A stretch of DNA of 64,000 bases from NCBI GenBank assembly GCA_051294375.1, contig CM119271.1, positions 4,783,579 through 4,847,578 of the forward strand, in the 5' to 3' direction. Below the pieces are notes generated by a model. The model worked only from the letters and a program-made list of their open reading frames with translations, was not told the origin of the DNA and made no database searches. The stretch's first letter is position 1. Every line of letters begins with the position of its first letter. Origin of the DNA: Paraspadella gotoi (Eukaryota > Animalia > Chaetognatha). Below, piece by piece: positions 40,710 through 59,003 of this stretch. A program made the position numbers and the translations under genes.

Positions 40710-42113
40710 TCATTGTTTTCGAGGCACCAGAGATAAAGGTTGTATACTTTCTCCGGGATCGTCAAGGTTTACGAAGAAGCGATAATCCCCTTCGCCCTTA
40801 AATTCCATTCGGTTGTGACTCGATGTGGAAAGGCGAAGTTCTTTCATCGTCCCATCGAACTCGGGAAGAACGTCGACGTTAAAATCGAAGGCAGAGTCTA
40901 AAAATAGATTAAAACATTATAATGAAACAATATGGTTAGAGTAATTGAATGCAGAGAACGACTTACTTTTCGGATAGAGTTCATCGCCGGGATAAACCGT
41001 CACAACTCCGTCCTTGCATTGTTTAGCCACTGGTTGCCAACGGGGAATCCCCCGTGTCTCGCGCTCCGGACAGAAATCTCGCAACTTATCGAAATCGGAA
41101 AACCGCAAGAGACGAGAGTGCTCGTACATTTGTGGCGGAGGCATCCAGAGTTGACCTTGAACAAAATTGGAAAACGATCTCCTTGGATTGATGGTCTTCT
41201 TATTTCCTACTAATATTCTATGATTTACCTCCGAAATGTAAATTAAGAGCAGTGCGAGAATCAAGCCATTGGGCCTTGACGATTTCTCCTTCATCGGCCG
41301 CGAAATAAGTCGGCATTTCATCCAGCGTCGCTACGTAGAACAGGGTGTCGAAGCGAATCGGTTTTTTGTCATTTTTCGGATCCAGTTTTCCGCTTCGATT
41401 AGCTGGCAAAGAGTAGCGTACATCTTTGATGCTACATCCTGACAAATAAAGCATAACCCGAGTTCGTTCTACCTACTAGCGAGGCTAAGTCCCACGGGCG
41501 TGAGCCAGTTGCTCCACTCATGAAGTCGCCAAACATCCGGAGCCACCTTAAACTCTTCACAAAGTCGCATAAAGTTGGCGGCGTTGTCCTGTACCGCGCG
41601 ACGCCACCTTGTCGTCTCGGCGGCGTCCATATCGACGAAGGCAGACCCTTCGGCGTTGGCTACTAAAAGGATTCCCACTTCCTCGAAAGTCTCCCGGATG
41701 GCGGCGACGCGGAGCGCCAAGTCTAGGGAAAACGACGATGAGTCCTTCGCCTCTGCGATCATCGGCGGCCGCTTCTCTATCGACAAATTGGAGCTGGCGG
41801 GGGGCGGACGACTTCCGGCGAATCGTTCGAGAGTCGACGACCAAGAAGCGTCGCGGTCGGCAGCGTCGACGACGCCGCCGGGAAAAACGAGGGCGCTGGC
41901 CATAAATTTTGACTTGGAGCTTCGAGTCAACATGAGCGACTTAAAGTTTTGTCCCGAGAGCGCGGACGACTCCACGGCCTCGTAGGAATTTTTCGAAGGT
42001 CGCAGAGCTTCGAAGGTGTGGTCCTCAGCTAAAAGGGGCGCAGGGGAGGTCGTCTTGGCCGTCAGCAGCAGCGTCGAAGCGTCGCGCCAGTGCCGCGTGA
42101 GGGCACGCTGCAT
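40710..42113 (-). CDS. NUDT19: Nudix acyl-CoA diphosphatase NUDT19, 4 exons (42113-41477, 41438-41229, 41155-40967, 40897-40710)
   Basis: WRDASTLLL, RSSKSKFMASALVFPGG, RVAAIRETFEEVG (Nudix box), LHEWSNWLTP, RFDTLFY, LWMPPPQMYE, PGDELY. Confidence 0.92.
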
Positions 42114-43769
42114 GACGACCGTCGAAGACTTGCGCGCTTTAAGAGTTAAGATATATAACAATGTTCGTCTGTGAATTTTTAAAAAGGAAAACATTCCAGG
42201 AGAACGTTCCGGATTTTAGAAAGAAAAAAAAGAATCGGGCGTTTTTGTCGTAAATTAATAATTGAAAGCAACGTGACGTTTATAAATTATGAAACTTTTG
42301 TTTGAGTGAAAATTATTTTATTAGTATTTTTTGGTTGTAAAATGGTAAAATTGCGACAGTTTTCATATTTCTTTTTGCGCAAGAGCTTTTCTCTTTCAAA
42401 AAATAAAAAGACGACTGAGACCAATAAGAACGAATATTACAAATGAAAAAAAGAATAAATTATAAGCATAAATGCATAATGATAGCAAAAAATATTGCTA
42501 TTTTCTATTAAATTCAATTTTACGACTGCCGAGATAAATAAAATAGAATACTCGAAAGACAAATAGATAAAAGAACGCACTTATTTCTGATATTATTTCT
42601 ACATACTTAATTTCTAAATTCTAATATTACCCACAACATGCAGGTAGCGAACCTGAAGACTAGTCGGAAATTAGTTTAAAAAAACTCGGCGACAAAATAA
42701 GTTAATACGGACAACAAAAATTTAGTTTAAAAACAACGGCAATCGACAAAACATATAAATATATTAGACCCATTTCACAATTCGAATGACTAGAAACACC
42801 CAGATCAGAGAAAAACAAGATTATCATTATGAAAAAAAGCGAACACGACACGAGAGAATACCGGGATACGGATTTTTTAATTTCTGTCGCAGGTTCGAAT
42901 CTATGCAGATAATACTACGGAATAACGTTCATGCAAAAATCATGTGTAACGAATAAAAAAGTGCAACGATGATACTTTCAATTTACGATAACTTAACAAT
43001 AAATAATAAAGCTCTGTGATGTTAAGTAGTAAATGCTCTTACGCGATCGCACGGATCAACATGGACAGAAACGAGTAAAATCGTTTGATCGCCGTTTTAA
43101 AATTCGCATAGTCAAACGTAATTCAGCGGAGATGGCTTTTTAAAGTGACGGTAACCAATGCACATTTTCTAAAAAACAACAAATCGTTATTCCTCTTTCT
43201 TCATAGTCAAGCCGTGACTTATGAATGAATATACGAATGTGAGTAAAGACGACGATATCCAATGGTGTGAGATAAAACAGTGAAGCAATAATAACAATTT
43301 AATGATTTTTCAATCTTTCTCGTGACTGTCTAGGACTCGGTAAAAGATTCAATTAGCCCTAGATTAATATTGAAATGGATGGTGATTTTTAGTCGTGACT
43401 CTTGTTGTCAATGTGGTATTAAATTAAAACTGAATTCGGATATGATCATTTGCTTCATAATTTCATGTAATGTTTGGGCAGCGAAATCTCGTCGAACGTC
43501 AACAAAAAAAAAGCAAAACTGTCAAAAAATCATCTACTCTATGGGGTTTTAAATTACTAATAATCTACTAAACAAAAACATGCCGCAAGAAGAGAATTCA
43601 TTGTCGGCGGATGAAAAAAAATGAGTAAAAATAAGTCAAATCTTCCATCGTTGATCGATAAAGACCTTCACGAGCGTTCTTTTCTTTTTTTTGGTGGGGA
43701 GATGTCGATCGAAAAACCACGCCCATCACTCCGAAAGCATTTGGCGGAAAAAGTGAGCGTGGCAATGCA

Positions 43770-46700
43770 TCAGATCGGCGAGCCGCTGGAACCGTGATTT
43801 CTAGCCGGTGACGCGGAACCAGTGAATGTGACGCTAGAAGACGACGAGGAATCAACGTAGTTGGGATTATAGGGCGGGTGACTAATCTCGGCTGGCTGAT
43901 AAGGGGGCAAATCTGCCGGATCGTAAGGGGGCAAACCGTCGCCGCGGAGGATCGGCGAGGGGGCGACGCGAATCACCGAGTGGCAGATGTCGTCTTTCGG
44001 CCCATCGGTGGAGGTGTAAACAGATCTAGAGTGGGGGAGGGGGGGGGAGACGGACATAAAGGTCGTAGGATAATCGTTCAATAAAAACTTTAATTCGACC
44101 AGGATCCCCCTCAAGAAACCTGGTATTAGCGTGATCGATGAGGTATTGCGACGAAGTGACGGCGCCGTTGGCTACGGGGACGCAGACGACGGCGGCGACG
44201 GGAAGGGGCGTGGCTTCGACGTCGGCGGAAGCACCCGGAGGCGGCGAGATGTATAGAAAACGCGGGTGCGGCTCCGGATGGCAGACGGCGCGGCAGCACA
44301 GGGTGGAGCACCAAATGGACGCGGCCGTTGAGAGGACGGCGAGCAGAAGCAGCGAAGAATCAAGAAGGATCGAGGTCAAGTAGCCCAAGCGGGTACAGCC
44401 GTACCATTTTTTTTCCTTCGAGGAGATCTTTGGGTCGGTGTGGAAAAGAGTAAAGGGTGTTTATGAGATACACGCTTTTTTTCTCCCTACCAAGGTTTAC
44501 ATTAAAAATTTTATTATTGACCTGCGATGCAAGTTATCTAAAAATATCCGTATTTTCTCTAAAACAAACAAAAACAAAATAAAAAATCTTAAAAGTATAG
44601 TGATCTCGCCAGACTTTACTATCAAAGATTTTTTTTTTCTGAAATAAAAGAAACAATTTGACAGTTAATACGATAAAAAGATAAAACAATAAAAGAAACA
44701 AAACAAAAAAAGACTGATTGATGCGATAAAAATTATTATTGTAATAGTAATTGATTTATGTAATAGTAATTGAGTGAGTAATGTAATAATAATTAATTGA
44801 TTGATGTAATAGTAATTGATTGTTGATGCGATGATAACCAAAGATTGATATGATGATAACCAAATGATGGATGTGATGATAGTCATTCATTGATGCGATG
44901 ATAATCATTCATTGACGTAATGATAATCATTCATTGACGTAATGATAATCATTCATTGACGTAATGATAATCATTCATTGACGTGTTGATAATCATTCAT
45001 TGACGTGTTGATAATCATTCATTGACATGTTGATAATCATTCATTAACGTGTTGATAATTATTCATTGATGTGATAATTCTAACGGGGGAGCATCTTATA
45101 TTATTATTTATTGTTGACCTTATGGTTAGTGGTAGAATGCTCGCATTGTTCTTTTTGCTGTTCTACTTGATAATGTTTATGAATTAATATAAAGAGAAGC
45201 AATAGTGGTCAATTACATTATTTATTGTATTATCAACTTAACATTATATTATTATTATGCACAAGATACATAATGGTTATTATATTATAAGTGGTAAGCT
45301 AAGAAAAGGGCATAGTGGTTCAAACCGACCCTGAAATCCTAGCTGATTAATAGCTAGGCCTTTGACAATAACAATCTTCTATCAAACATGAGCCAGTCTC
45401 CCAGAACAAGAAAAATACTTCCATTTATAAAGCGACAATACTACTATGAAATATTTGAATAATAATTGGAAAACTAAAACATTATTAAAACCTATTAAAA
45501 CTATTGCTAAAACCGTAAAATATAGAACTATTATGAAAACTGTATCAAAAGATATGAGAAATGGTCCAAACTACTACAATATGTAAATGAGATTGAAGAA
45601 CTCAATCTCATTTGAAATGAACCACAAATTATTCTGCTACATACGTCACAACCACGGTAAAATAAAACGTCCTCGTTTTATAAAGTTCGAAACGAAGTAA
45701 AGAACGATAAAACAGAGTTAAGTAACATGAAGTGAAGAATGATGTGAAGAAGTAATCCATATCCAGATGAGGGCAATCACGAGGAAGTTGTTTTGTGAAG
45801 TCCAAAAGGAAGTGAAGTGAAGAAACGACACAGAGATTGAGTTGGCCCACACAAATTGAAGAATGATGAGATGGATAAAGTGATGCCACACAAAGATGGA
45901 AATTATGGAAAGAAAGTAGTATGAAATAGTTTTATGCAATTTAATATAGATTTGAAATCTGAATTGTACTAAGTGGATTCAATTGTTCAAGCCACATTGA
46001 GTGGATATGAATTTCATGTTTCATGATTATTTTTATGCTTTGTTTTTATGTTTTGTTAAAAATGATGTAAGTTACTTGAAATGTATGTAAAATAATTAAT
46101 TGAAAAAAAGCGATGTATAAATTAAAGAATGGAAAAGTTGTTATTAATTGAAAAGCTGTTATGAAAAATAAAAATTTCCAAAGTAGTTGTGTGTTTTTGT
46201 TCTGTAAAAAATATATTTAATTCAATTTTGAGATCATTCACAATGAAATGCATTTTTTTTTTTTTAAATTGATGAAATGTGGAACAATTCTGTAGAGAAA
46301 ACTTGGGATTTATTCTGAATCAGATTCGTGTTCATATCTTCTTGGGCCTCTTTCATAATCTTGTAAATAAGGTTGGTCAGGGAATTCTTCATATCTATTT
46401 TTTGTTATAATAGTGATCAGTTGAATATGGTGACCAGTCGTCTTGTGGGCCATGGTAATTATGGCGATATCTTTCTTCGGAGTTATGATACCCCTTGTGA
46501 TAATCTGGCTGTTGACTTTGAAAGTGATCTTGAGTGTTAGTAATTTTTATCTTTGGGATAGAAAATCAAATTTTTGGTCATATTTTGACCTTTCAAAGCT
46601 GGAAGAGTAATGGTCTTGTTCTTTCTTTCTATTCATCCTTATTTCATCAAGTAATCCATTAATGCTTGAGTTGGTTTCTTGCTGTGCCTCTAATTGGTGC

Positions 46701-49700
46701 TTTTTATTGATTGACATTCTGAGATTTTTTTGAGACAGTTTTTCCATGCTTGTCATGGAAGCCGGCGTAAAGGAAACTTCCGAGGGCGAGATGTCCAGGC
46801 TGCAGCTAATGGTAGCTTTCATTTTTCTGGAGCAATTCTTGCCACTTTTTCTGCTCGTTCCCGTGCTTTTTCTATATCGTATGTGCGTGGAGGCAAGCCT
46901 AAGTCAATGAAAGATTGATAATCTGGTGGAAGTCCTGCCATGAATCTTTTGTGTATTTCTTGCTTAAATAGTTCTTGGTTTTCGGCAACTAATGGGTGCA
47001 AAGAGCGAGTCTCTGTTATGACCAAATGTTCAAAAGTATGCAAAAGGAAGTTTACCATCCCATTTGAGAGCATCAATGTTATCTTGAAAGTGTTGCTTTT
47101 TCATTGGATCTGCAAGTTTTTGAATTAGTTCAGCTTTCAGTGCGGGCCAATTGTTTTTGTTTTTGGAAGTTTCAAATATTTTTAGACCAAGATCATCCAA
47201 TTTGGTTGGGAGATGTTTGAGGTATGCATTAATTTTCATTTCATTCGTTGCATCATCTGGTAAAGCTGCAATAACTGCCCAAGAATATCTTGAGAGCCAC
47301 AATTCTATGTCTTGTTTCTCACTGAAGTTGAAAGGTCTTATGTCAATTTCATAGAAAGAAATCCATTTTAAGATAAAACAGTTGAATAGAAGATAGTGAT
47401 AAGTGAGAGAACGTAAATGGAATATGAAATTTGTGGAGTTAGCAGCAGTATGTGGTGAAGTGAGCAATGGGTTATCAGAGATAACAGCCCACTTGTCTTT
47501 GGTTTATGAACAAAAGTGAGCAATAGGTTATCAGCGATAACAGCCCACTGGTATCTGGAGATTCTGTATTTGGAGAGGTGTGGATGGTTTCCCAGAGGGA
47601 TGGCCACACAATGAGAAGTAGATTTAAAATAGAGAATTATTTAACTTGTGTAGGAGAGCATCGCTCAGGATAGGAGACGTGTTTTAATGTGCTTAGTTTA
47701 ACATTACATTTTATAAAATAGGACAAAAAGAATACAGTGCCAACTGAAGATTTCAGGCTCAAGAATAGGGTAAATGTGTAGGTTTCAATTGTGGCTGAAT
47801 TTTGTAAGAGTGTGGAAACTATATAAAGTATGATGAGAGAGCAGAGAGGCAGTGAGGAAATGGGTAGTAAAAGGTTGATATCTGTAGGCTTTGGGTGAAG
47901 TATGTTTATTTTGTAAAGGAGTAAAATTTGTCAAATACAAGTAAATATGAGAAGAAATTAAATATGAGCAGAAATGGAAACTTGAGTTGAACGGCACTTT
48001 GTTGTCCCAATGAAGTTTGAGCTTGGATTTGAGAGAGAAGTCGAGGGGTATGAGTTCCTTGAATGTCACATAAAATGTAAAATGAAAAGGAGAATGTTAG
48101 GTTAAAATGAATGGAAAAAACAGGCGCAGAGCAGGGTGGATATCCAAAAACTTTTTTTTTTTTTTTTTTTAAATAAAATTATGGAATGTAATTTGTAAAA
48201 TGGTTAAAATGTATTATGGAGAGAGGAGAGTAAAGTGTGTTTGTTTTCAACTCATTCAGACCTCTGAATTCCCCACAGAAAACAGCTCAGAGAAGGTGAA
48301 CGGGCCAATCGACGAATTAAGCGAAGCGAAGTGTAGTTAGGACGAGTTGTAGATTTGGACGAGTTTTAGAGTTGGACGGACGAGTAGAGAGAGAGAAGAG
48401 ATACCAATTTTGTAACGTATTGTCAAAGTGAGCCGGCTTGTAGAAGTGTGGTATCCCTTATTGATTGGAGCGACGATGAGTTGTAGAAGCGACAAAGTTG
48501 TAGTTTGGGGCCGGAACAGTCTCCTCCAACTGGGTTTCAATGAGTTTTATGAACATGAAAGGAGTAGTGATATCAAAGGTTGTGACACCTCATTTGTGGG
48601 GATGAAGCTGCATCAACTTAAAGCTGCCACCAATTCTCCAAAGTTGGTGCTGTCAGAAGCTGGGAGAACAGCATGAAATGTGGGATCATTTAATGGAGAG
48701 AGCATAGAAAAGTTGATAAATGTGAAATGGATAAATGTATGAAGGTATAAAATATTAAAATAGGATTTAGGTTTATCTTGAATACAATGGGCAGCCAAGA
48801 TTCTTGGTTGGAAATTTTGAATTTCCACATCCGCGATGCACCACTCTAACGGCGGGAGCATCTTATATTATTATTTTTGTTGACCTTATGGTTAGTGGTA
48901 GAATGCTCGCATTGTTCTTTTTGCTGTTCTACTTGATAATGTTTATGAATTAATATAAAGAGAAGCAATAGTGGTCAATTACATTATTTATTGTATTATC
49001 AACTTAACATTATTATTATTATTGCACAAGATACATAATGGTTATTATATTATAAGTGGTAAGCTAAGAAAAGGGCATAGTGGTTCAAACCGACCCTGAA
49101 TCCTAGCTGATTAATAGCTAGGCCTTTGACAATAACAATCTTCTATCAAACATGAGCCAGTCTCCCAGAACAAGAAAAATACTTCCATTTATAAAGCGAC
49201 AATACTACTATGAAAATATTTGAATAATAATTGGAAAACTAAAACATTATTAAAACCTATTAAAACTATTGCTAAAACCGTAAAATAAGACTATTATGAA
49301 AACTGTATCAAAAGATATGAGAAATGCGTCCAAACTACTACAATATGTAAATGAGATTGAAGAACTCAATCTCATTTGAAATGAACCACAAATTATTCTG
49401 CTACATAATAATCATTTCATTGATAGTTGATAATAATCATTCATTGATATTGATAATAATCATTCATTGATGTGATTAATAATCATTCATGACGTGATGA
49501 TAGTCATTCATTGATGCGATGATAATCATTCATTGACGTGATTATAGTCATTCATTGATGTGATGATAGTCATTTATTGATGCAATGATAGTCATTTAAT
49601 GATGCAATGATAGTCATTCATTAATGCTATGAGTCATTCATTGTAAATAAAAACAAACAAATGCGTATATGAGTGAGAGAGAGAAAAAGAAAAAAAATAG

Positions 49701-52462: not shown

Positions 52463-55400
52463 TCATAAATCGTCCTGAATCAAGTTTTCCATCCCCGCCA
52501 TGGCGTTCTTGTCCCCCGTCACGTTGCACTTGTGAATGATGGCCTTTTCGTAGGCCTTCTTCACTGCCCGCCGAACAGATTGTTTCCTCTCTCCATTGAG
52601 CTTTGCGTGGTCCAGACCAGAGTCGACGCCGAGCGGCTCGAGCTTGTTTCGCGGTAGCCACTGCCAAGTCCGCTTAGAGTCAAAGAACAATACCAGATAG
52701 TAGTGGTTCTCGACCGGCTGCAGACTCAACACCTCCTTTGGTGGGACGGGGATGGGCACGCCGTTTTGATTGACGCCAATGCGGGGCATCTTCGGATTAA
52801 TGATGAGAGCGGGATACCAGGGGTATCCGCGGCATTTGGCCCAAACGAGGTCGAGAGGCTCGAGGGGAATGATCTCATCGTCCCAGGCGGAGGAACCGCG
52901 CGATCGGCGAACGTTGGCCGCTTTCGGGAGTAACAGGGAGTTGCGTCCACCGACGACGGCGGCGTCAGCGGCACGGCGCGGCGGAGCTTTCCGCGTAGCG
53001 CCGGGATTGTTGCTACCCTCGAGAGCGAGAACCCTGTCCACGTCGCGCCCGTCGTCGTCATCCGCATCATCGTCGTCTTCGTCGGTGGTGCTGTCGCCGC
53101 TCCGCGACCCCATCGAGCTCGTCTCCATTCCCGAGTGGGAACCAGTAAAGTCCGCCACGTGCAATGACGGCCCGCTGCGACGAGGGCTGGCGTGGCTCGA
53201 AGAATTGTTGGAGAGAAGCTGAATATGCGGCATCGGGTGGTTGTGAGGCAGACTGAGAGGAGGGAGAGCGGGGTAAGTGATGTGGAGACTCGCACCGCCA
53301 CCGCCGCTGCCTCGGTCGTCGAAAGAGTTTCGCGACGACGGCGAGTGACGGACGGCGTCTACGGAATCCTTGAAGGCGGAAGGAAATCCCGACGGCGACC
53401 CGCGGAGTCCGGCGCCTTTGCGCTTTGTTAATCTCTTGTTTTTCGTCGCAAGAAGGCCGCCGACGCTGCCGCCACCGTCCCTTGACCGCCGCCGGTGAAT
53501 CCTGCTATTGTGCCGATCGTCGACGAGGCAGTTGACGCCGTTGTTGGGGGACTTTGAGGAGGAGAGACGGGAATCGGCGGAGGGCGTGAGAGGGAGGGAG
53601 GAGACCCGACTCTCGCTCATACGACTCCGTCGCTCCTCCTCCTCTTCCTCCTCGTCCTCGTCGTCGGAGGATGCCGTCTCGCTTTCGCTGCCCGTCGAGT
53701 CGGAGTCGTCCGTCTCGTCGTCGTCTGCGTCGTCGTCGTTGTCGGAAGAATCGGAACGAACAACGGCGTCTCGGCGGTACCGCTTGAAGCTTTCTTGCTC
53801 CAACTTTTTTATCAACTCTTCGTCCGGCGGGAGCGCGGTGTTTTTCTCTGAAGCGTCGTCGGCTGCGGCGTCGCCGGACAGCGTCGCCGGCGAAAACTTG
53901 ATCTGCTTGGCCGGCGTCGGGTTGAAGCGGGTCGCCCGGCCGGCAGGAGAGAAGAGCGACGGCGTCGTCGAATCCTCCGAGGATGAGATCAAAGAGTTGG
54001 GCATCTGCCGCTTCTTACCGGCGAACGGAGCCGACCTATGGGAGGTGATGATATTTAAGTGATCACGTGACTGCAAAAGTATGATACATATGCACATGAA
54101 AGTTCTTATGGTTCCTAACCGTTCTACCAATTATATACGATATAATATATGATGATTGATGAAGTTTTAAACGATTTATAAGCCTTTAAAACGTAAGTAA
54201 GACAGACCGACGGACAGACAAACATACCGACCGAAAAGTGACTTAAATTCACAACAAAATTCTGATGTCAGATTTTATTGTTTATCATTATTGTTATGCA
54301 GTTGTTTCTCTCCTTTGTTTTTCCCCTATTTGTTTTCAAATGATTAAATGAGTGCTGATTACGGGCAAAATTGTTTTAAATGTAACTTGTAAGAAAATGG
54401 TACAACTAATTAATGTAAAACACCTCGCTAATTTTTATCTTAAAAACAATTGAAGTCAATTAAAAAAAAAAAAGAAGAAGATCAAAATTCTCCCTCACAG
54501 AACCTGGACGCGGCGGCAAGGCGATCGAAGGCGTTGGATACTGAGGTGGTGGGCGTGGGCGCGGCACAGGAGGCGGAGACGGGCGTCAATGAGACCTGAA
54601 CAAAAGGAATCTGGGTCCGATTTTTCCCTCCGCCGAGGCAGCGAGTACTGTCTTTTCTCTCCCTAAAAGTTTTTCCCTGCGAAGCGTTGAGGTCAAAACC
54701 GGCGGCGCCGTTGTGCGCCGTCGTTTCGTCGTCGGAAGTGGCGCCGTTGATGGCGTGGTTGTCGGCGTCTCCGTCCTGTCGCCGACCGAAGAACGAGTTA
54801 AGTTTAGTCTGCTTCATTCGCAAAGCGCGAGCGCGACGCTTCCTGGAGGTGGACGTTGTCGACTCTCGTCTCGTGTTCGCCTTTAACGAAGACAGAACGT
54901 CGTCGTCCGTCTTGTCGTCGTCGTCGTCTTCGGTGCGATCGTCGTCTTCATCGTCGCCGTCGTCGTCTCGACTGGGAATTCTGGATCGACTTTCGCTGGA
55001 CGGAGATCGATCTACTTTGAGCGGGGACTTGACCGGTTGCTGCTTCTTCCCGCGGAAGAGGACCATACTTCTTCGATTGACGCCGCCGTTGGTCGAAGAT
55101 CGTTGATCCCCTTCGACGTCGCCAGGGGATTCCTTTTTCGCGACGCCGCCGACCACAGATTCTTCCTCCGTCGGCGAGTGAACGTTTTTAACCGGCGACG
55201 ACGAAGTGGCCGAGACGCGGGCGGGGTGACGCGGCGTGCCGGCGGCGGCGCCAAAGAGATTCGCGCCCGGCTCCAGCGGCGTGGTAGGCGGGGAGATCGG
55301 AGAAGTGGTGATGTCGTCACTGTTGACCGCCTGATTGTTGGCGGGTCGCAATGACGAAGGTTTTGATTTTCCTTTTCTACCCTTTTTCCGCCGGACGGTG

Positions 55401-58400
55401 GGTTTGGATGCGACGGAGACATCTTTGATGGACTCTTCCTCTGCGACGGTCGTTTCCGCGTCAGAGATGTTCTCCGTCTTGGCGGCGTCGTTGGGCGACT
55501 CATCGACGGAATCATTGGCGTCGCTCCGGCGCCGATTTCGCGCTCTTAATTCCGGCGCGGTTTCGACGTCGGCGTCCTCTTCCTCTTCTTCCTCTTCATC
55601 GTCGTCAGTCTTGGCCGGCGTCGTATCCTCCAAAACGATGCCCAAACCCCTCGTGCTTTGTCGCCGCGGCAAAGTGGGCGTTTTCGTCGGAGACTTGGTT
55701 TTTGAGGGCGAGGCTGGGCTGGATTTGGAGGGCGATTCGCCGCCCAAATTCTGCTGCGCCGTCAACTTCCGGCGAATGATGCCGATCTGCTTCTTGAGCT
55801 CCTTGACCCGCTTGTTGGAGACCGCCCCTGACGAACAGTTGGCCTGATCCATCTTGTTAAGCAAAATATCCAGCTGCTTTTCTAGTGGAACGTCGGAGGC
55901 TGTGAGAGACTGGATAAAAGCCTCCACATCCTCGATATCGTCCATGTGAGCATCCTCAAACGTGGCGGTCTCAGCGGTGGTGTCCTTTTCTGTCGTGACG
56001 GCGCTACGATCTTCGGGCGACAGGTGCAAGCCCGTCTCACGGTCGAATCCGATTTTCTCGTAGATGCGGCGAGCTTGCCGTAAGATGCTGCCGCCCTGGT
56101 CGCGCAACTTGATCGCAGCTCGGTAAAACATGTTGCCCTTGCCGTTGTAGCTCACGCAGTTGGAGACGATGAGCTTGAAATCGTCCTCGAATTGAGTTAC
56201 GTTTACATACTCGTTGTTTTGAATCTTTTTTCTCATGGTTCGGAAATCCATGGGGTGAGGCACACAAACATAATAGTCGGGCGCTTCCGCCGGATTCACT
56301 GGATCTGCAAAAATGTTTTGAGTGTCCTTCTCCACCAACTGGTCCAGAGTATTGCGCAAAAAGTAGTTCAGCGGCTGCAGTTCCAGTTCAACGACCAGCT
56401 GATGAATTCTAACCCGCTCCCGTTTCAGCCGCTCCCTCTTGCGAATAAGCTCTACCAGAAGTCGCGCCTTTTCCAGGTCTTGCCGCAGTCTCTGCCAATA
56501 CTTCAACTGCTCTTTCAAAGCCTGAGTCTTTTGCTCCGCGTCGAGGTCCTTCTTGGTCTGGTTGCTCATCTGCAAACGTCGCAGCAACGGAACGCCGTTT
56601 CTCGATTGTCTTTTAAGCGTCCAGTAACCTATGAGTCTTTCCATGAATTGGGCTTTTTTAGGGAGGCTGACCTTGGCCATGATTTGATTGAGGCGATGCT
56701 GGGATATGACGGGCACAGAGACCACAGGCGCGGCCACCCGCTTCTCCGCCAAAATCTTGCGCGCTTTCTTCATGTTGATCTTTGAACCGGGTTTGACGTC
56801 CTCAAATCCGTGGTCCAGCTTAGGCACCCGCGCGGGCGAGGCGTCGGCCGGCGTGTGAGCGTCGCAAAAGGCGGTCTTGGAGACTGAGTAGGTGGTACCG
56901 CGGCCAGTGTCATCCTTAATGGGCTCCATTTTCAGATAAAGTCCCGCCTGTTGAGCACAGGTCACGTGAAAGGCCGTGTAACAGTTGGCTTTGTGACACT
57001 GAATACAAGCGCCGACGTTGGTCTGTTTACAGATGTAACACTTAAGGCGCCATCGAGCGGGTGGGATGTTTTTAACCGAGTCAATAGGTTCGAGGAAGAC
57101 GGCGTTTGCGAATCCCACCTCGGGGATCCAGAGTGCGCAGACAACGTGGGCCCAAGTTGCATCGTCGGTCTGCTTGAAGGCGCCCCCTTTGTTGGGACAA
57201 AGAATGCATTCTACTGCCCTGGAGGGCGATTGGAGGCAACGCCGGCATAGCCACTGCCCCTCGGGAATGTAGGGAACACCGTAGCATTCCTGATGCACTG
57301 CCAGGTTGCACATATCGCAGAAGAGAATAACGTTGGAGTTCTGACACTCGCCGTCGTTACAGATGCAGCAGACGGCGTCTTCGTCAATCGGCGGCCCCAC
57401 GTCCTTGCCCGAAGATTTACTCTGAAAGTAAGATTCTTTCTCCAGTCGGTCCATGAGCTGCTCGAAGACTTCTTGCTTGACGGGGCCGGCGCCTTCAGCT
57501 CGACGCTTCTGATTGACAATCTCCAGCCAAGCATCGTCCTCCTCGTCCATGTCATACTCGACTTGTTCATCCAGTTCCTCTGGAGTCTTCTCCATGTAAC
57601 GATAATACGAAACGACCCGTTCTGGCACGGGCGGAAGCCGCATTGGCTGGTCGATGATGCGCCAAACGGCCTCCGGTAATTTATTCTTTCCGTCGTCGCC
57701 GCCGGGCGTGGCCGGGGGCGTGTCGCAATTGGCTCCTTTCCGCTTCATGGCGTTCTTGATGCTTTTCCGCGAAGAGAAAAGAGCGTTTTTGGCTTTTTTC
57801 GAGACTTTCGGAGTCTTTTTGGGCGAGGGAGCAACGGGCGTCGGTGGCTGTAGAGGCGGCGTGGGCGAGGGTCGAGCCGGCGCGGCGTCGTCGGCGCCCG
57901 ATGTCCCGGGCACGGCGTCGTCGCCCTTGATTTCGTTCTCTCTATTGTCGATCTCATCCTGGGTCATTATCTCGAGGTTTTCGGTGATGTTGATGCGATG
58001 CGTCTCTCCCTCAATCTCCACCTCGACGATCTTCTGGGACTGGGCGTAGGTGAGCGCCTCTCGCGGGCGCGAGGGGGCGGCGCCGCTCCCGCCGAGGCTC
58101 AGCGGCGACGAAGCGTTGTTGGGACTGCGGCAGCGGTTTTTCGGGTTGCGGGCGTCGGCGCGGCGAGACTTTTTCGAAGAGTCCGCGACGGCGGCGGCGG
58201 CAGAGTCGTTGGCGGCGGCGCCGGGCGTGCGAGGGGAGGAAGGCGTGGAGGAAGCGGAAGCGCCGTGATCATGGTTCTGCAGGTGAAACTGAATGCCGGG
58301 ATAGGATTTGTAGACACGACCGCAACCGGGGATCGGACAATCGTATGGAGGCTTGGTCGCTTTGAGGATGTCGCAAATGACCTGGACGTTGACATCAGGA

Positions 58401-58417
58401 CCGCATTGTCCCAGCAT
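52463..58417 (-). CDS. BRPF1: Peregrin/BRPF-family scaffold (C2H2, EPC, PHD-Zn knuckle-PHD, bromodomain, PWWP), 2 exons (58417-54504, 54035-52463)
   Basis: [50 protein letters not shown], bromodomain PMDF...YN, and PWWP segment [16 protein letters not shown]. Confidence 0.95.
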
Positions 58418-59003
58418 TGTCCGTCTTTTATGTGGGGTAATGGCGTGCGGCGAAACGGCGGAAGCGGATCGCGCGAGGGACGAGGGTTCCTTCTCTCTTT
58501 TTAAGAGTCGCTGTCGAGATCAACGCGGTTCCAATTGAGAATTTTCGTCTTTAAACGCGAGGGGGCGTCTCCATTGACGCCGCGCGGAAGAGGATTTTCT
58601 CCCTTTCTCGAGATGACATTCAGGGTTGGGGCGACTTCGTTCATAGTTGGTTCGATCCTGAATCAATTGTCGTCGAGAAACCGAGTCGCGGAAAGATCCA
58701 ATAAATACCATCTGTTCAACTGGATAAAAATATACTGTAGAGAAGGTCATTGAGAAAATAAAAGATCAATAAGAGATATTATAATTATTAATCTGATAAA
58801 TTTCATCCCCAAATCAACCAATGAATGAAGTCGGACCGACGCACCACCAATTTAAAAAAAAAAAGCTCACATAATTAGTGATTATTCTTGAAAATTTTAA
58901 ATAATTTTCAAAACTTTAATTTAAAAAAATTAATTACACCAAATCATTTCTATCAATTAAAAGATTATTTAAATCAAAGAGCGAAATAAAATTTACGTTT
59001 CCT

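What the first reader, a model, noticed from the sequence alone, without database searches (positions are those of the whole stretch)
48834..48910. Bipartite tRNA-Gly primer site: the LTR carries the complement of the tRNA 5' half
Seen: the plus strand has TGGTTAGTGGTAGAATGCTCGC in both LTRs (48889-48910 and 45123-45144), about 45 nt from the 10-nt PBS. Known, from recall: invertebrate tRNA-Gly(GCC) begins GCATCGG-TGGTTCAGTGGTAGAATGCTCGC-CTGCC, a 22-of-23 match with one deletion, and the PBS matches the 3' end of the same tRNA. Extended or bipartite primer pairing is described for yeast Ty1 and Ty3 with initiator tRNA-Met. Inference: the element RNA clamps one tRNA-Gly at both its acceptor end and D-arm. 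The site would also be a near-perfect target or sponge for the abundant 5' tRNA-Gly(GCC) fragments.
Basis: partly seen in the sequence, partly recalled or inferred. Interest (0 to 1): 0.75.

Follow-up and report, generated by a model that had tools for sequence, protein, structure and literature searches.

The report
Second primer-tRNA site in retrotransposon LTRs
A jumping gene that likely starts copying itself from a glycine tRNA carries, inside its terminal repeats, a second and longer match to another part of that same tRNA; two unrelated jumping-gene families show the same layout, so it is likely a recurring way to grip the primer, similar to what is known in yeast.

Summary
A gag-only LTR retrotransposon lies on the minus strand (45079-49405, target duplication TAAT). 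Its 10-nt primer-binding site (48834-48843) matches the 3' end of Drosophila tRNA-Gly(GCC) as printed in papers. 45 nt away, in both LTRs, a box matches tRNA nt 8-30 at 22 of 23, with a perfect 17-nt core (48894-48910; D loop to anticodon stem). New here: a metagenome scan found the same pair of sites in a Ty3/Gypsy-type element (L003) and a Bel/Pao-type element (L004/L012), each with a perfect 16-nt box 22-46 nt inside the LTR end and no other LTR similarity. Folding predicts an open box and a primer site hidden in a hairpin, as measured for yeast Ty3. Best reading (0.6): a second docking site for the primer tRNA. Main rival (0.2): neutral capture of the attached primer by reverse transcriptase, which predicts the same strand and position. 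Not shown: the host tRNA sequence, binding, selection, prevalence, and whether the box is in R or U5. The box's first five bases vary among copies. The scan noted a similar tRNA-Trp case on other DNA (unchecked). Verdict: new variant of the known multipartite primer site.

The parts
48845..49405 (-). 5' LTR, 561 nt, ends TG...AGA in element sense
   Evidence: LTR alignment; other insertions break off at 49405 (loose ends: 6, 34 and 8 contigs in three runs) and join other flanks at the 48845 end
45079..45641 (-). 3' LTR, 563 nt
   Evidence: 559 of 569 aligned columns identical, 0 substitutions, 10 gap columns
48834..48843 (-). 10-nt primer-binding site for the 3' end of tRNA-Gly(GCC), 1 nt inside the 5' LTR end
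   Evidence: sequence against the tRNA printed in PMC6587125
48894..48910 (-). 17-nt perfect complement of tRNA-Gly nt 14-30 (D loop, 3' D stem, 5' anticodon stem): core of the box, 5' LTR copy
48889..48893 (-). 5-nt flank of the box matching tRNA nt 8-12 across a one-base gap; variable among copies
   Evidence: G48891T is common
45123..45144 (-). the same box in the 3' LTR
48858..48862 (-). 5-nt match to tRNA nt 1-5; predicted to pair with the PBS in a hairpin; may be chance, not kept in diverged copies
   Evidence: fold; loose ends of diverged contigs differ here
49075..49087 (-). weaker second match to tRNA-Gly nt 1-14 (8 continuous bases, then 4 more after a bulge); overlaps a B-box-like word on the plus strand (49082-49091); copy at 45310-45322
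   Evidence: comparison with the printed tRNA by eye
46637..47362 (-). gag-like gene, in two frames with a break near 47040 (real or a read error)
   Evidence: 50 relatives at E<=0.001; tblastn; retrotransposon-gag look-alikes at 0.91
45075..45078 (.). target-site duplication TAAT, left copy, in a 22-nt tandem array
49406..49409 (.). target-site duplication TAAT, right copy

Best explanation
The LTR box is likely a second docking site for the element's own predicted primer, tRNA-Gly(GCC), and so likely makes the short 10-nt primer site part of a two-piece one. Shown: the two complements, their strand and spacing, and the same layout in two unrelated families. Inferred steps: (1) the box, predicted to be mostly unpaired, captures the tRNA by its D loop and D/anticodon stems; (2) this holds the tRNA near the primer site, which is predicted to be folded back on the LTR end, and helps the acceptor end invade it; (3) reverse transcriptase then displaces the D arm as it copies the LTR end. 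If the distal poly(A) signal is used, the RNA would also carry the box near its 3' end, where the same tRNA could bridge the two ends as in Ty3 or help first-strand transfer. The enzymes would come from an autonomous partner that was not found.
For: Box and PBS match the same tRNA. The same 12-nt core (tRNA nt 14-25) lies 49, 46, 22 and 23 nt inside the LTR end in the window, L003, L004 and L012. L003 has a Ty3-capsid gag downstream (PF19259, E 2e-7, above cut-off); L004 has a DUF1759 gag-pol (E 6.8e-20; Bel/Pao type by recall). The window LTR shares nothing longer than 13 nt with them outside the box (printed part). Of 54 two-site hits from three scans, 3 have a 16-nt box; the other 51 reach 10-13 nt. 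Of 120 PBS-like sites in viral contigs none has more than 8 nt of the box within 100 nt upstream. Predicted duplexes: box core -30.9, PBS -16.5 kcal/mol; opening cost 3.5-5.0 for the box against 8.7-8.8 for the PBS; same order in L003 (3.7, 11.6) and L004 (1.6, 4.1). Ty3 shows the same asymmetry by experiment: weak, self-paired 5' PBS and open, stronger 3' segments (PMC11381356, passages). Both variants seen in the core would leave a G-U pair.
Against: The scan asked for both sites, so it gives no denominator and cannot show that the D arm is favoured over other tRNA parts. Conservation in the family is inconclusive: 2 variable places in the 17-nt core against 7 in the 13 nt at 48917-48929, but the 1% filter and higher depth hide rare variants in the box, and 48877-48890 shows no listed variant either. 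L004 and L012 are 364 of 382 identical, so an unchanged box there says little. The flank is eroded (missing base; G48891T in 18-100% of depth by run). No T-arm complement, which Ty1 and Ty3 have, was found in the element or near the LTR of L003 and L004. Energies ignore tRNA unfolding and modifications. The host tRNA was not read.
Confidence: 0.6

Rival explanations
1. Neutral capture. During plus-strand synthesis reverse transcriptase copies the LTR end from a minus strand that still carries the primer tRNA; a brief template switch onto the tRNA would write a piece of its complement into the LTR, which is then inherited without function.
For: It predicts the cognate tRNA, the antisense orientation and the position near the LTR end (inference). 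[quoted passage not shown]
Against: Three unrelated families keep perfect 16-17-nt cores around the same 12 nt, and in the window the core is intact while the flank has eroded. LTRs normally diverge quickly (PMC3601003, passages). Capture may explain the origin and selection the retention.
Confidence: 0.2
2. The box is mainly a site for 5' tRNA-Gly fragments (target, sponge or regulator of the element RNA), not for the intact primer.
For: 28- and 30-nt 5' tRNA-Gly-GCC fragments are among the most abundant in a Drosophila sample (PMC9149858) and would cover the box; two further partial words for the tRNA 5' end lie in the LTR.
Against: An element gains little from a silencing site; the box always sits beside a PBS for the same tRNA; its ends differ between families (nt 30, 25, 27), so no common fragment end is matched.
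Confidence: 0.1
3. The box works on the other strand or as DNA: an RNA polymerase III A box (as in Helenus LTRs), with a B-box-like word 189 nt downstream, or a protein-binding motif.
For: In tRNA sense the box covers the A-box region; a B-box-like word lies at 49082-49091; the word CCACTA occurs three times in the LTR (0 of 3000 shuffles reach 3; word chosen after seeing it).
Against: L003, L004 and L012 have no B-box word on either strand and lack the first bases of the A box; the shared core runs into the D and anticodon stems, outside the promoter; a T5 run follows 24 nt after the core start; the tRNA-sense strand is antisense to the element.
Confidence: 0.07
4. Chance match.
For: Many LTRs and many tRNAs are screened in a genome scan.
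Against: About 4e-7 to 4e-6 for the cognate tRNA; repeated in two other families.
Confidence: 0.01

Closest known systems
Ty3 bipartite PBS, S. cerevisiae (PMC5371799, PMC4974528, PMC11381356; passages read)
   Same: Short 5' PBS (8 nt) plus further segments in LTR-derived sequence that pair with the T and D arms of the same primer; 5' PBS self-paired, extra segments open and stronger.
   Different: Ty3 uses initiator tRNA-Met; its extra segments (12 and 11 nt) are in U3, about 4800 nt away in the RNA, and include the T arm. Here one 17-nt block for tRNA-Gly, D loop to anticodon stem, lies 45 nt upstream of the PBS, with no T-arm match.
Ty1 extended PBS (PMC4974528, passages)
   Same: 10-nt PBS plus nearby segments complementary to T and D arms, needed for primer packaging and initiation.
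   Different: Ty1 segments lie 3' of the PBS inside GAG; here the block is 5' of the PBS inside the LTR, and so in both LTRs.
HIV-1 A-rich loop and PAS, RSV U5-T-arm pairing, and the tRNA-Lys3-like sequence in HIV-1 U3-R (PMC3185550 passages; PMC6468702 passage and reference)
   Same: LTR sequence upstream of the PBS pairs with other parts of the primer; the U3-R case is reported to aid minus-strand transfer.
   Different: Those contacts are short (about 4-9 nt) and aim at the anticodon or T arm; retroviral PBSs are already long.
Drosophila gypsy second tRNA-Lys2 site (PMC1635307, passages)
   Same: A second site for the primer tRNA in an animal Ty3/Gypsy element.
   Different: 11 nt near the RNA 3' end; only the 5' PBS was indispensable, a warning that a second site need not be needed.
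Helenus TRIMs (PMC10886601, parts 1-4 of 6 read)
   Same: Non-autonomous LTR elements with tRNA-derived sequence in the LTR and 4-bp target duplications in animals.
   Different: Helenus keeps A and B boxes as a likely Pol III promoter, is under 1.3 kb and non-coding, and none of the animal primers listed is tRNA-Gly. Here only a D-arm piece of the cognate primer is present, antisense, in a 4.3-kb element with a gag gene.

Membership tests
LTR retrotransposon (non-autonomous) | two direct LTRs and a target-site duplication | tested here: met
   TAAT lies in a low-complexity array, but short-read junctions fix the ends
LTR retrotransposon (non-autonomous) | tRNA primer-binding site next to the 5' LTR | tested here: met
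   10 nt, 1 nt from the LTR, against the Drosophila tRNA; host tRNA not read
LTR retrotransposon (non-autonomous) | TG...CA ends | tested here: not met
   ends are TG...AGA
LTR retrotransposon (non-autonomous) | polypurine tract before the 3' LTR | tested here: not met
   last 60 internal bases hold no purine run next to the LTR
Ty3/Gypsy | Ty3/Gypsy-type gag | tested here: inconclusive
   look-alikes named retrotransposon gag at 0.89-0.91; of 14 relatives scanned one hits PF03732 below cut-off; 0 Pfam hits for the ORF itself
Ty3/Gypsy | pol order and reverse-transcriptase phylogeny | not testable with these tools
   no pol family hit in 10 internal ORFs; no long relative found; no partner locus
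Multipartite PBS (Ty1/Ty3 kind) | short PBS plus separate segment complementary to the same tRNA | tested here: met
Multipartite PBS (Ty1/Ty3 kind) | segment complementary to the T arm | tested here: not met
   0 matches inside the element with up to 1 mismatch of a 10-nt T-loop word; none near the LTR in L003, L004
Multipartite PBS (Ty1/Ty3 kind) | extra segment needed for primer binding or initiation | not testable with these tools
   needs bench work; only predicted energies
Helenus / TRIMp3 | A and B boxes of a tRNA gene in the LTR, short non-coding element | tested here: not met
   0 tRNA calls; B-box-like word 189 nt away in the window only; 4.3 kb with gag

The most novel reading that the evidence does not exclude
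Glycine-tRNA-primed LTR retrotransposons of both Ty3/Gypsy and Bel/Pao type have converged on a 16-17-nt anti-D-arm block in the LTR that loads the primer through its D loop and, being present at both RNA ends, lets the primer guide first-strand transfer; the same block would expose them to the very abundant 5' tRNA-Gly halves, giving 5' fragments a direct way to control transposons.
Probability: 0.3. Interest if true: 0.72.

Novelty: new variant of a known kind. Interest (0 to 1): 0.52.

Why it matters
Multipartite primer sites are worked out mainly in yeast Ty1/Ty3 and retroviruses. A long D-arm complement inside the LTR, shared by unrelated Gypsy and Bel/Pao families with the same primer, suggests a general and easily searchable rule: short PBSs are backed by a second site that PBS finders ignore. 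It gives a clean test (does the box change when the primer changes?) and a concrete candidate target for 5' tRNA-Gly fragments, whose direct transposon targets are an open point (my knowledge, not from a call).

Tried and rejected
No own genome is held and no record behind L004, so the host tRNA and second LTRs of L003/L004 were not seen. ARAGORN: 0 genes in the window; 1 unrelated tRNA-Met in 16 loci. Rfam on 44900-49600: 2 weak chance hits. Viral scan for the 17-mer: 0. Two-site scans of prokaryote genomes (11 hits) and viral contigs (27 hits): none with more than 13 nt of box, treated as chance; 13 of the 16 metagenome hits likewise. Gag relatives: none longer, none in viral contigs, no solved structure, no names (10 of 50 looked up); L004 relatives in viral contigs: none. 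Profile comparison of the window's gag family with L003 gag: probability 0.5%, no support for close kinship. No RNA holder listed among sequencing runs; all runs laid were contigs, so no start, end or strand of a transcript. Priming by a 5' tRNA half from the box: rejected, since box ends differ between families and it would cut off the LTR end. A three-point clamp using nt 1-5: not relied on, as diverged copies differ there. Literature: 10 searches found no paper on an LTR D-arm box for tRNA-Gly; 0 papers hold both motifs; 0 hits in supplements of four papers. The library lacks most subscription papers, Repbase and bioRxiv supplements, and line breaks can hide motifs, so this is weak evidence of novelty.

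Full report
The element. The finding lies in an LTR element on the minus strand. The repeats span 48845-49405 (5' LTR) and 45079-45641 (3' LTR); 559 of 569 aligned columns are identical, with no substitution and 10 gap columns, which suggests a young insertion and indel-prone reads (inference). TAAT flanks both ends in a 22-nt tandem array. Short-read contigs from other insertions break off at 49405 and join other flanks at the 48845 end, so the ends are TG...AGA, not TG...CA. The 3203-nt interior holds a gag-like gene at about 47362-46637 in two frames (50 relatives at E<=0.001; tblastn; retrotransposon-gag look-alikes), no pol family hit in 10 ORFs and no polypurine tract. It is a non-autonomous, probably Ty3/Gypsy-type element; the superfamily is not proven. 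The host was not identified.

The observation. The 22-mer is at both stated places. Two papers print the tRNA: PMC9149858 lists 28- and 30-nt 5' fragments of D. melanogaster tRNA-Gly-GCC (table passage), and PMC6587125 prints the pCFD5 scaffold with the whole tRNA (passage). By eye, counting from the tRNA's first base, the box equals nt 8-30 with nt 13 missing; 48894-48910 equals nt 14-30 without a break (D loop, 3' D stem, 5' anticodon stem). The PBS equals the last 7 nt plus CCA, which is added after transcription (PMC3315495, passage). The element's RNA therefore carries the complements. The core occurs nowhere else in the window, and chance for a given tRNA is about 4e-7 to 4e-6. The host tRNA itself could not be read.

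Variation among copies. Contigs of five runs were laid in two calls. In one search (118 contigs laid from four runs) no insertion restores the missing base, so the gap is real. G48891T is common: 476.6 of 476.6 depth in X2, 409.2 of 463.1 in X9, 3165.9 of 14977.5 in X8, 649.4 of 3577.6 in X7. In the core two places vary: G48901A (656.8 of 39492 in X8; 50.7 of 6009 in X7) and G48909A (32.8 of 45340 in X8; 46.6 of 216.6 in X9). Both would leave a G-U pair with the tRNA, but such transitions are common anyway. Seven places vary in 48917-48929. The 1% filter, the higher summed depth over the box and the lack of listed variants at 48877-48890 make this inconclusive as a test of selection. It does narrow the claim to the 17-nt core. 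Most depth also shows one more A behind 48876 (24039.8 of 26078.2 in X8), as in the 3' LTR, which puts an AATAAA between the box and the LTR end in element sense. Another AATAAA lies 148 nt and a TATAAA 349 nt from the LTR end. The box may thus be in R (both RNA ends) or in U5.

Other elements. One scan of metagenome contigs for 9 nt of PBS plus 11 nt of box, 25-55 nt apart, gave 16 loci. Thirteen do not extend the match and look like chance. Three do. L003 has a 16-nt complement of nt 10-25, then a CA end, two T, a PBS (10 nt, one mismatch to the Drosophila tRNA, then 4 more) and a 681-aa open frame whose end hits Ty3_capsid (E 2e-7). L004 and L012, one family (364 of 382 identical), have a 16-nt complement of nt 12-27, a CA end, two T and a PBS; L004 continues into a 1108-aa frame with DUF1759 (E 6.8e-20), which marks Bel/Pao gag (recalled). 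Their LTR ends are inferred from these junctions; no second LTR was seen. The shared core is nt 14-25, 22-49 nt inside the LTR end. The window LTR shares no other stretch over 13 nt with them (printed part), and its gag family does not match L003 gag. Controls: of 54 two-site hits, only these 3 reach 16 nt, the rest 10-13 (the reference drew on the window and L003, so L003 scores by construction on one side, though those letters also equal the printed tRNA); of 120 PBS-like sites in viral contigs none has over 8 nt of box upstream. The scan required both sites, so it shows recurrence, not frequency, and cannot show a preference for the D arm.

Mechanism. Against perfect complements the core gives -30.9 and the PBS -16.5 kcal/mol. 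Opening the core costs 3.5-5.0 and the PBS 8.7-8.8 kcal/mol in three RNA windows, because the PBS folds back on the LTR end; L003 (3.7, 11.6) and L004 (1.6, 4.1) show the same order. These are predictions without tRNA unfolding or modifications. They fit a model in which the open box captures the tRNA by its D arm and helps the acceptor end reach a short, hidden PBS. Ty3 behaves so by experiment: 8-nt self-paired 5' PBS, open and stronger 3' segments, about 80% against 3% tRNA bound (PMC11381356, passages). Ty1 uses T- and D-arm segments for packaging and initiation (PMC4974528). Unlike both, no T-arm match was found here. I put this reading at 0.6.

Rivals. Neutral capture of the attached primer by template switching (0.2) predicts the same strand, tRNA and position; only selection or function separates it, and it may well be the origin of the box. 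A site for 5' tRNA fragments (0.1) is compatible but untested. A Pol III or DNA motif (0.07) fails in L003, L004 and L012, which have no B-box word. In Drosophila gypsy a second primer site proved dispensable (PMC1635307), so a real second site need not be essential.

Novelty. Multipartite primer binding is known. Ten literature searches found no description of an LTR D-arm block for tRNA-Gly or of such a block in Bel/Pao; coverage is limited. Kojima 2024 notes tRNA-like parts in many LTRs but treats only short Pol III-type elements. Earlier notes of this scan describe a tRNA-Trp complement in a gypsy-type LTR and an extended tRNA-Gly site in a BEL element; I did not check them and do not count them as support. 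Verdict: real, recurrent, likely functional; new variant of a known kind; interest 0.52.

Noticed in passing
window 48845-48850 and 45079-45084: The LTR ends in AGA in element sense instead of CA, confirmed by junctions of other insertions.
   Followed up: partly
window 45642-45700: No polypurine tract before the 3' LTR; the plus-strand primer of this family is unexplained.
   Followed up: no
window 49075-49091, 48965-48978, 48889-48899: The word CCACTA occurs three times in the LTR in element sense (0 of 3000 shuffles reach 3, word chosen after the fact); the first resembles tRNA-Gly nt 1-14 and overlaps a B-box-like word on the plus strand.
   Followed up: partly
window 49349-49377 and 49102-49123: Two strong hairpins in the LTR; the one near the outer end is shared with many other, otherwise unlike contigs (depth peak and loose ends).
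   Followed up: no
L004 481-575: The Bel/Pao-type element has three tandem PBS-like units behind the LTR (two in L012), the later ones in small hairpins.
   Followed up: no
L003 1260-3302: Gag frame with about 500 residues of coiled-coil-like sequence before the capsid-like domain.
   Followed up: no
window 44823-45075 and 49406-49643: The element sits inside a 22-nt tandem array.
   Followed up: no
window 52463-58519 and 41469-42215: Host genes nearby: frames that look like a BRPF-type PHD/bromo/PWWP chromatin protein and a Nudix hydrolase (recognised by eye).
   Followed up: no
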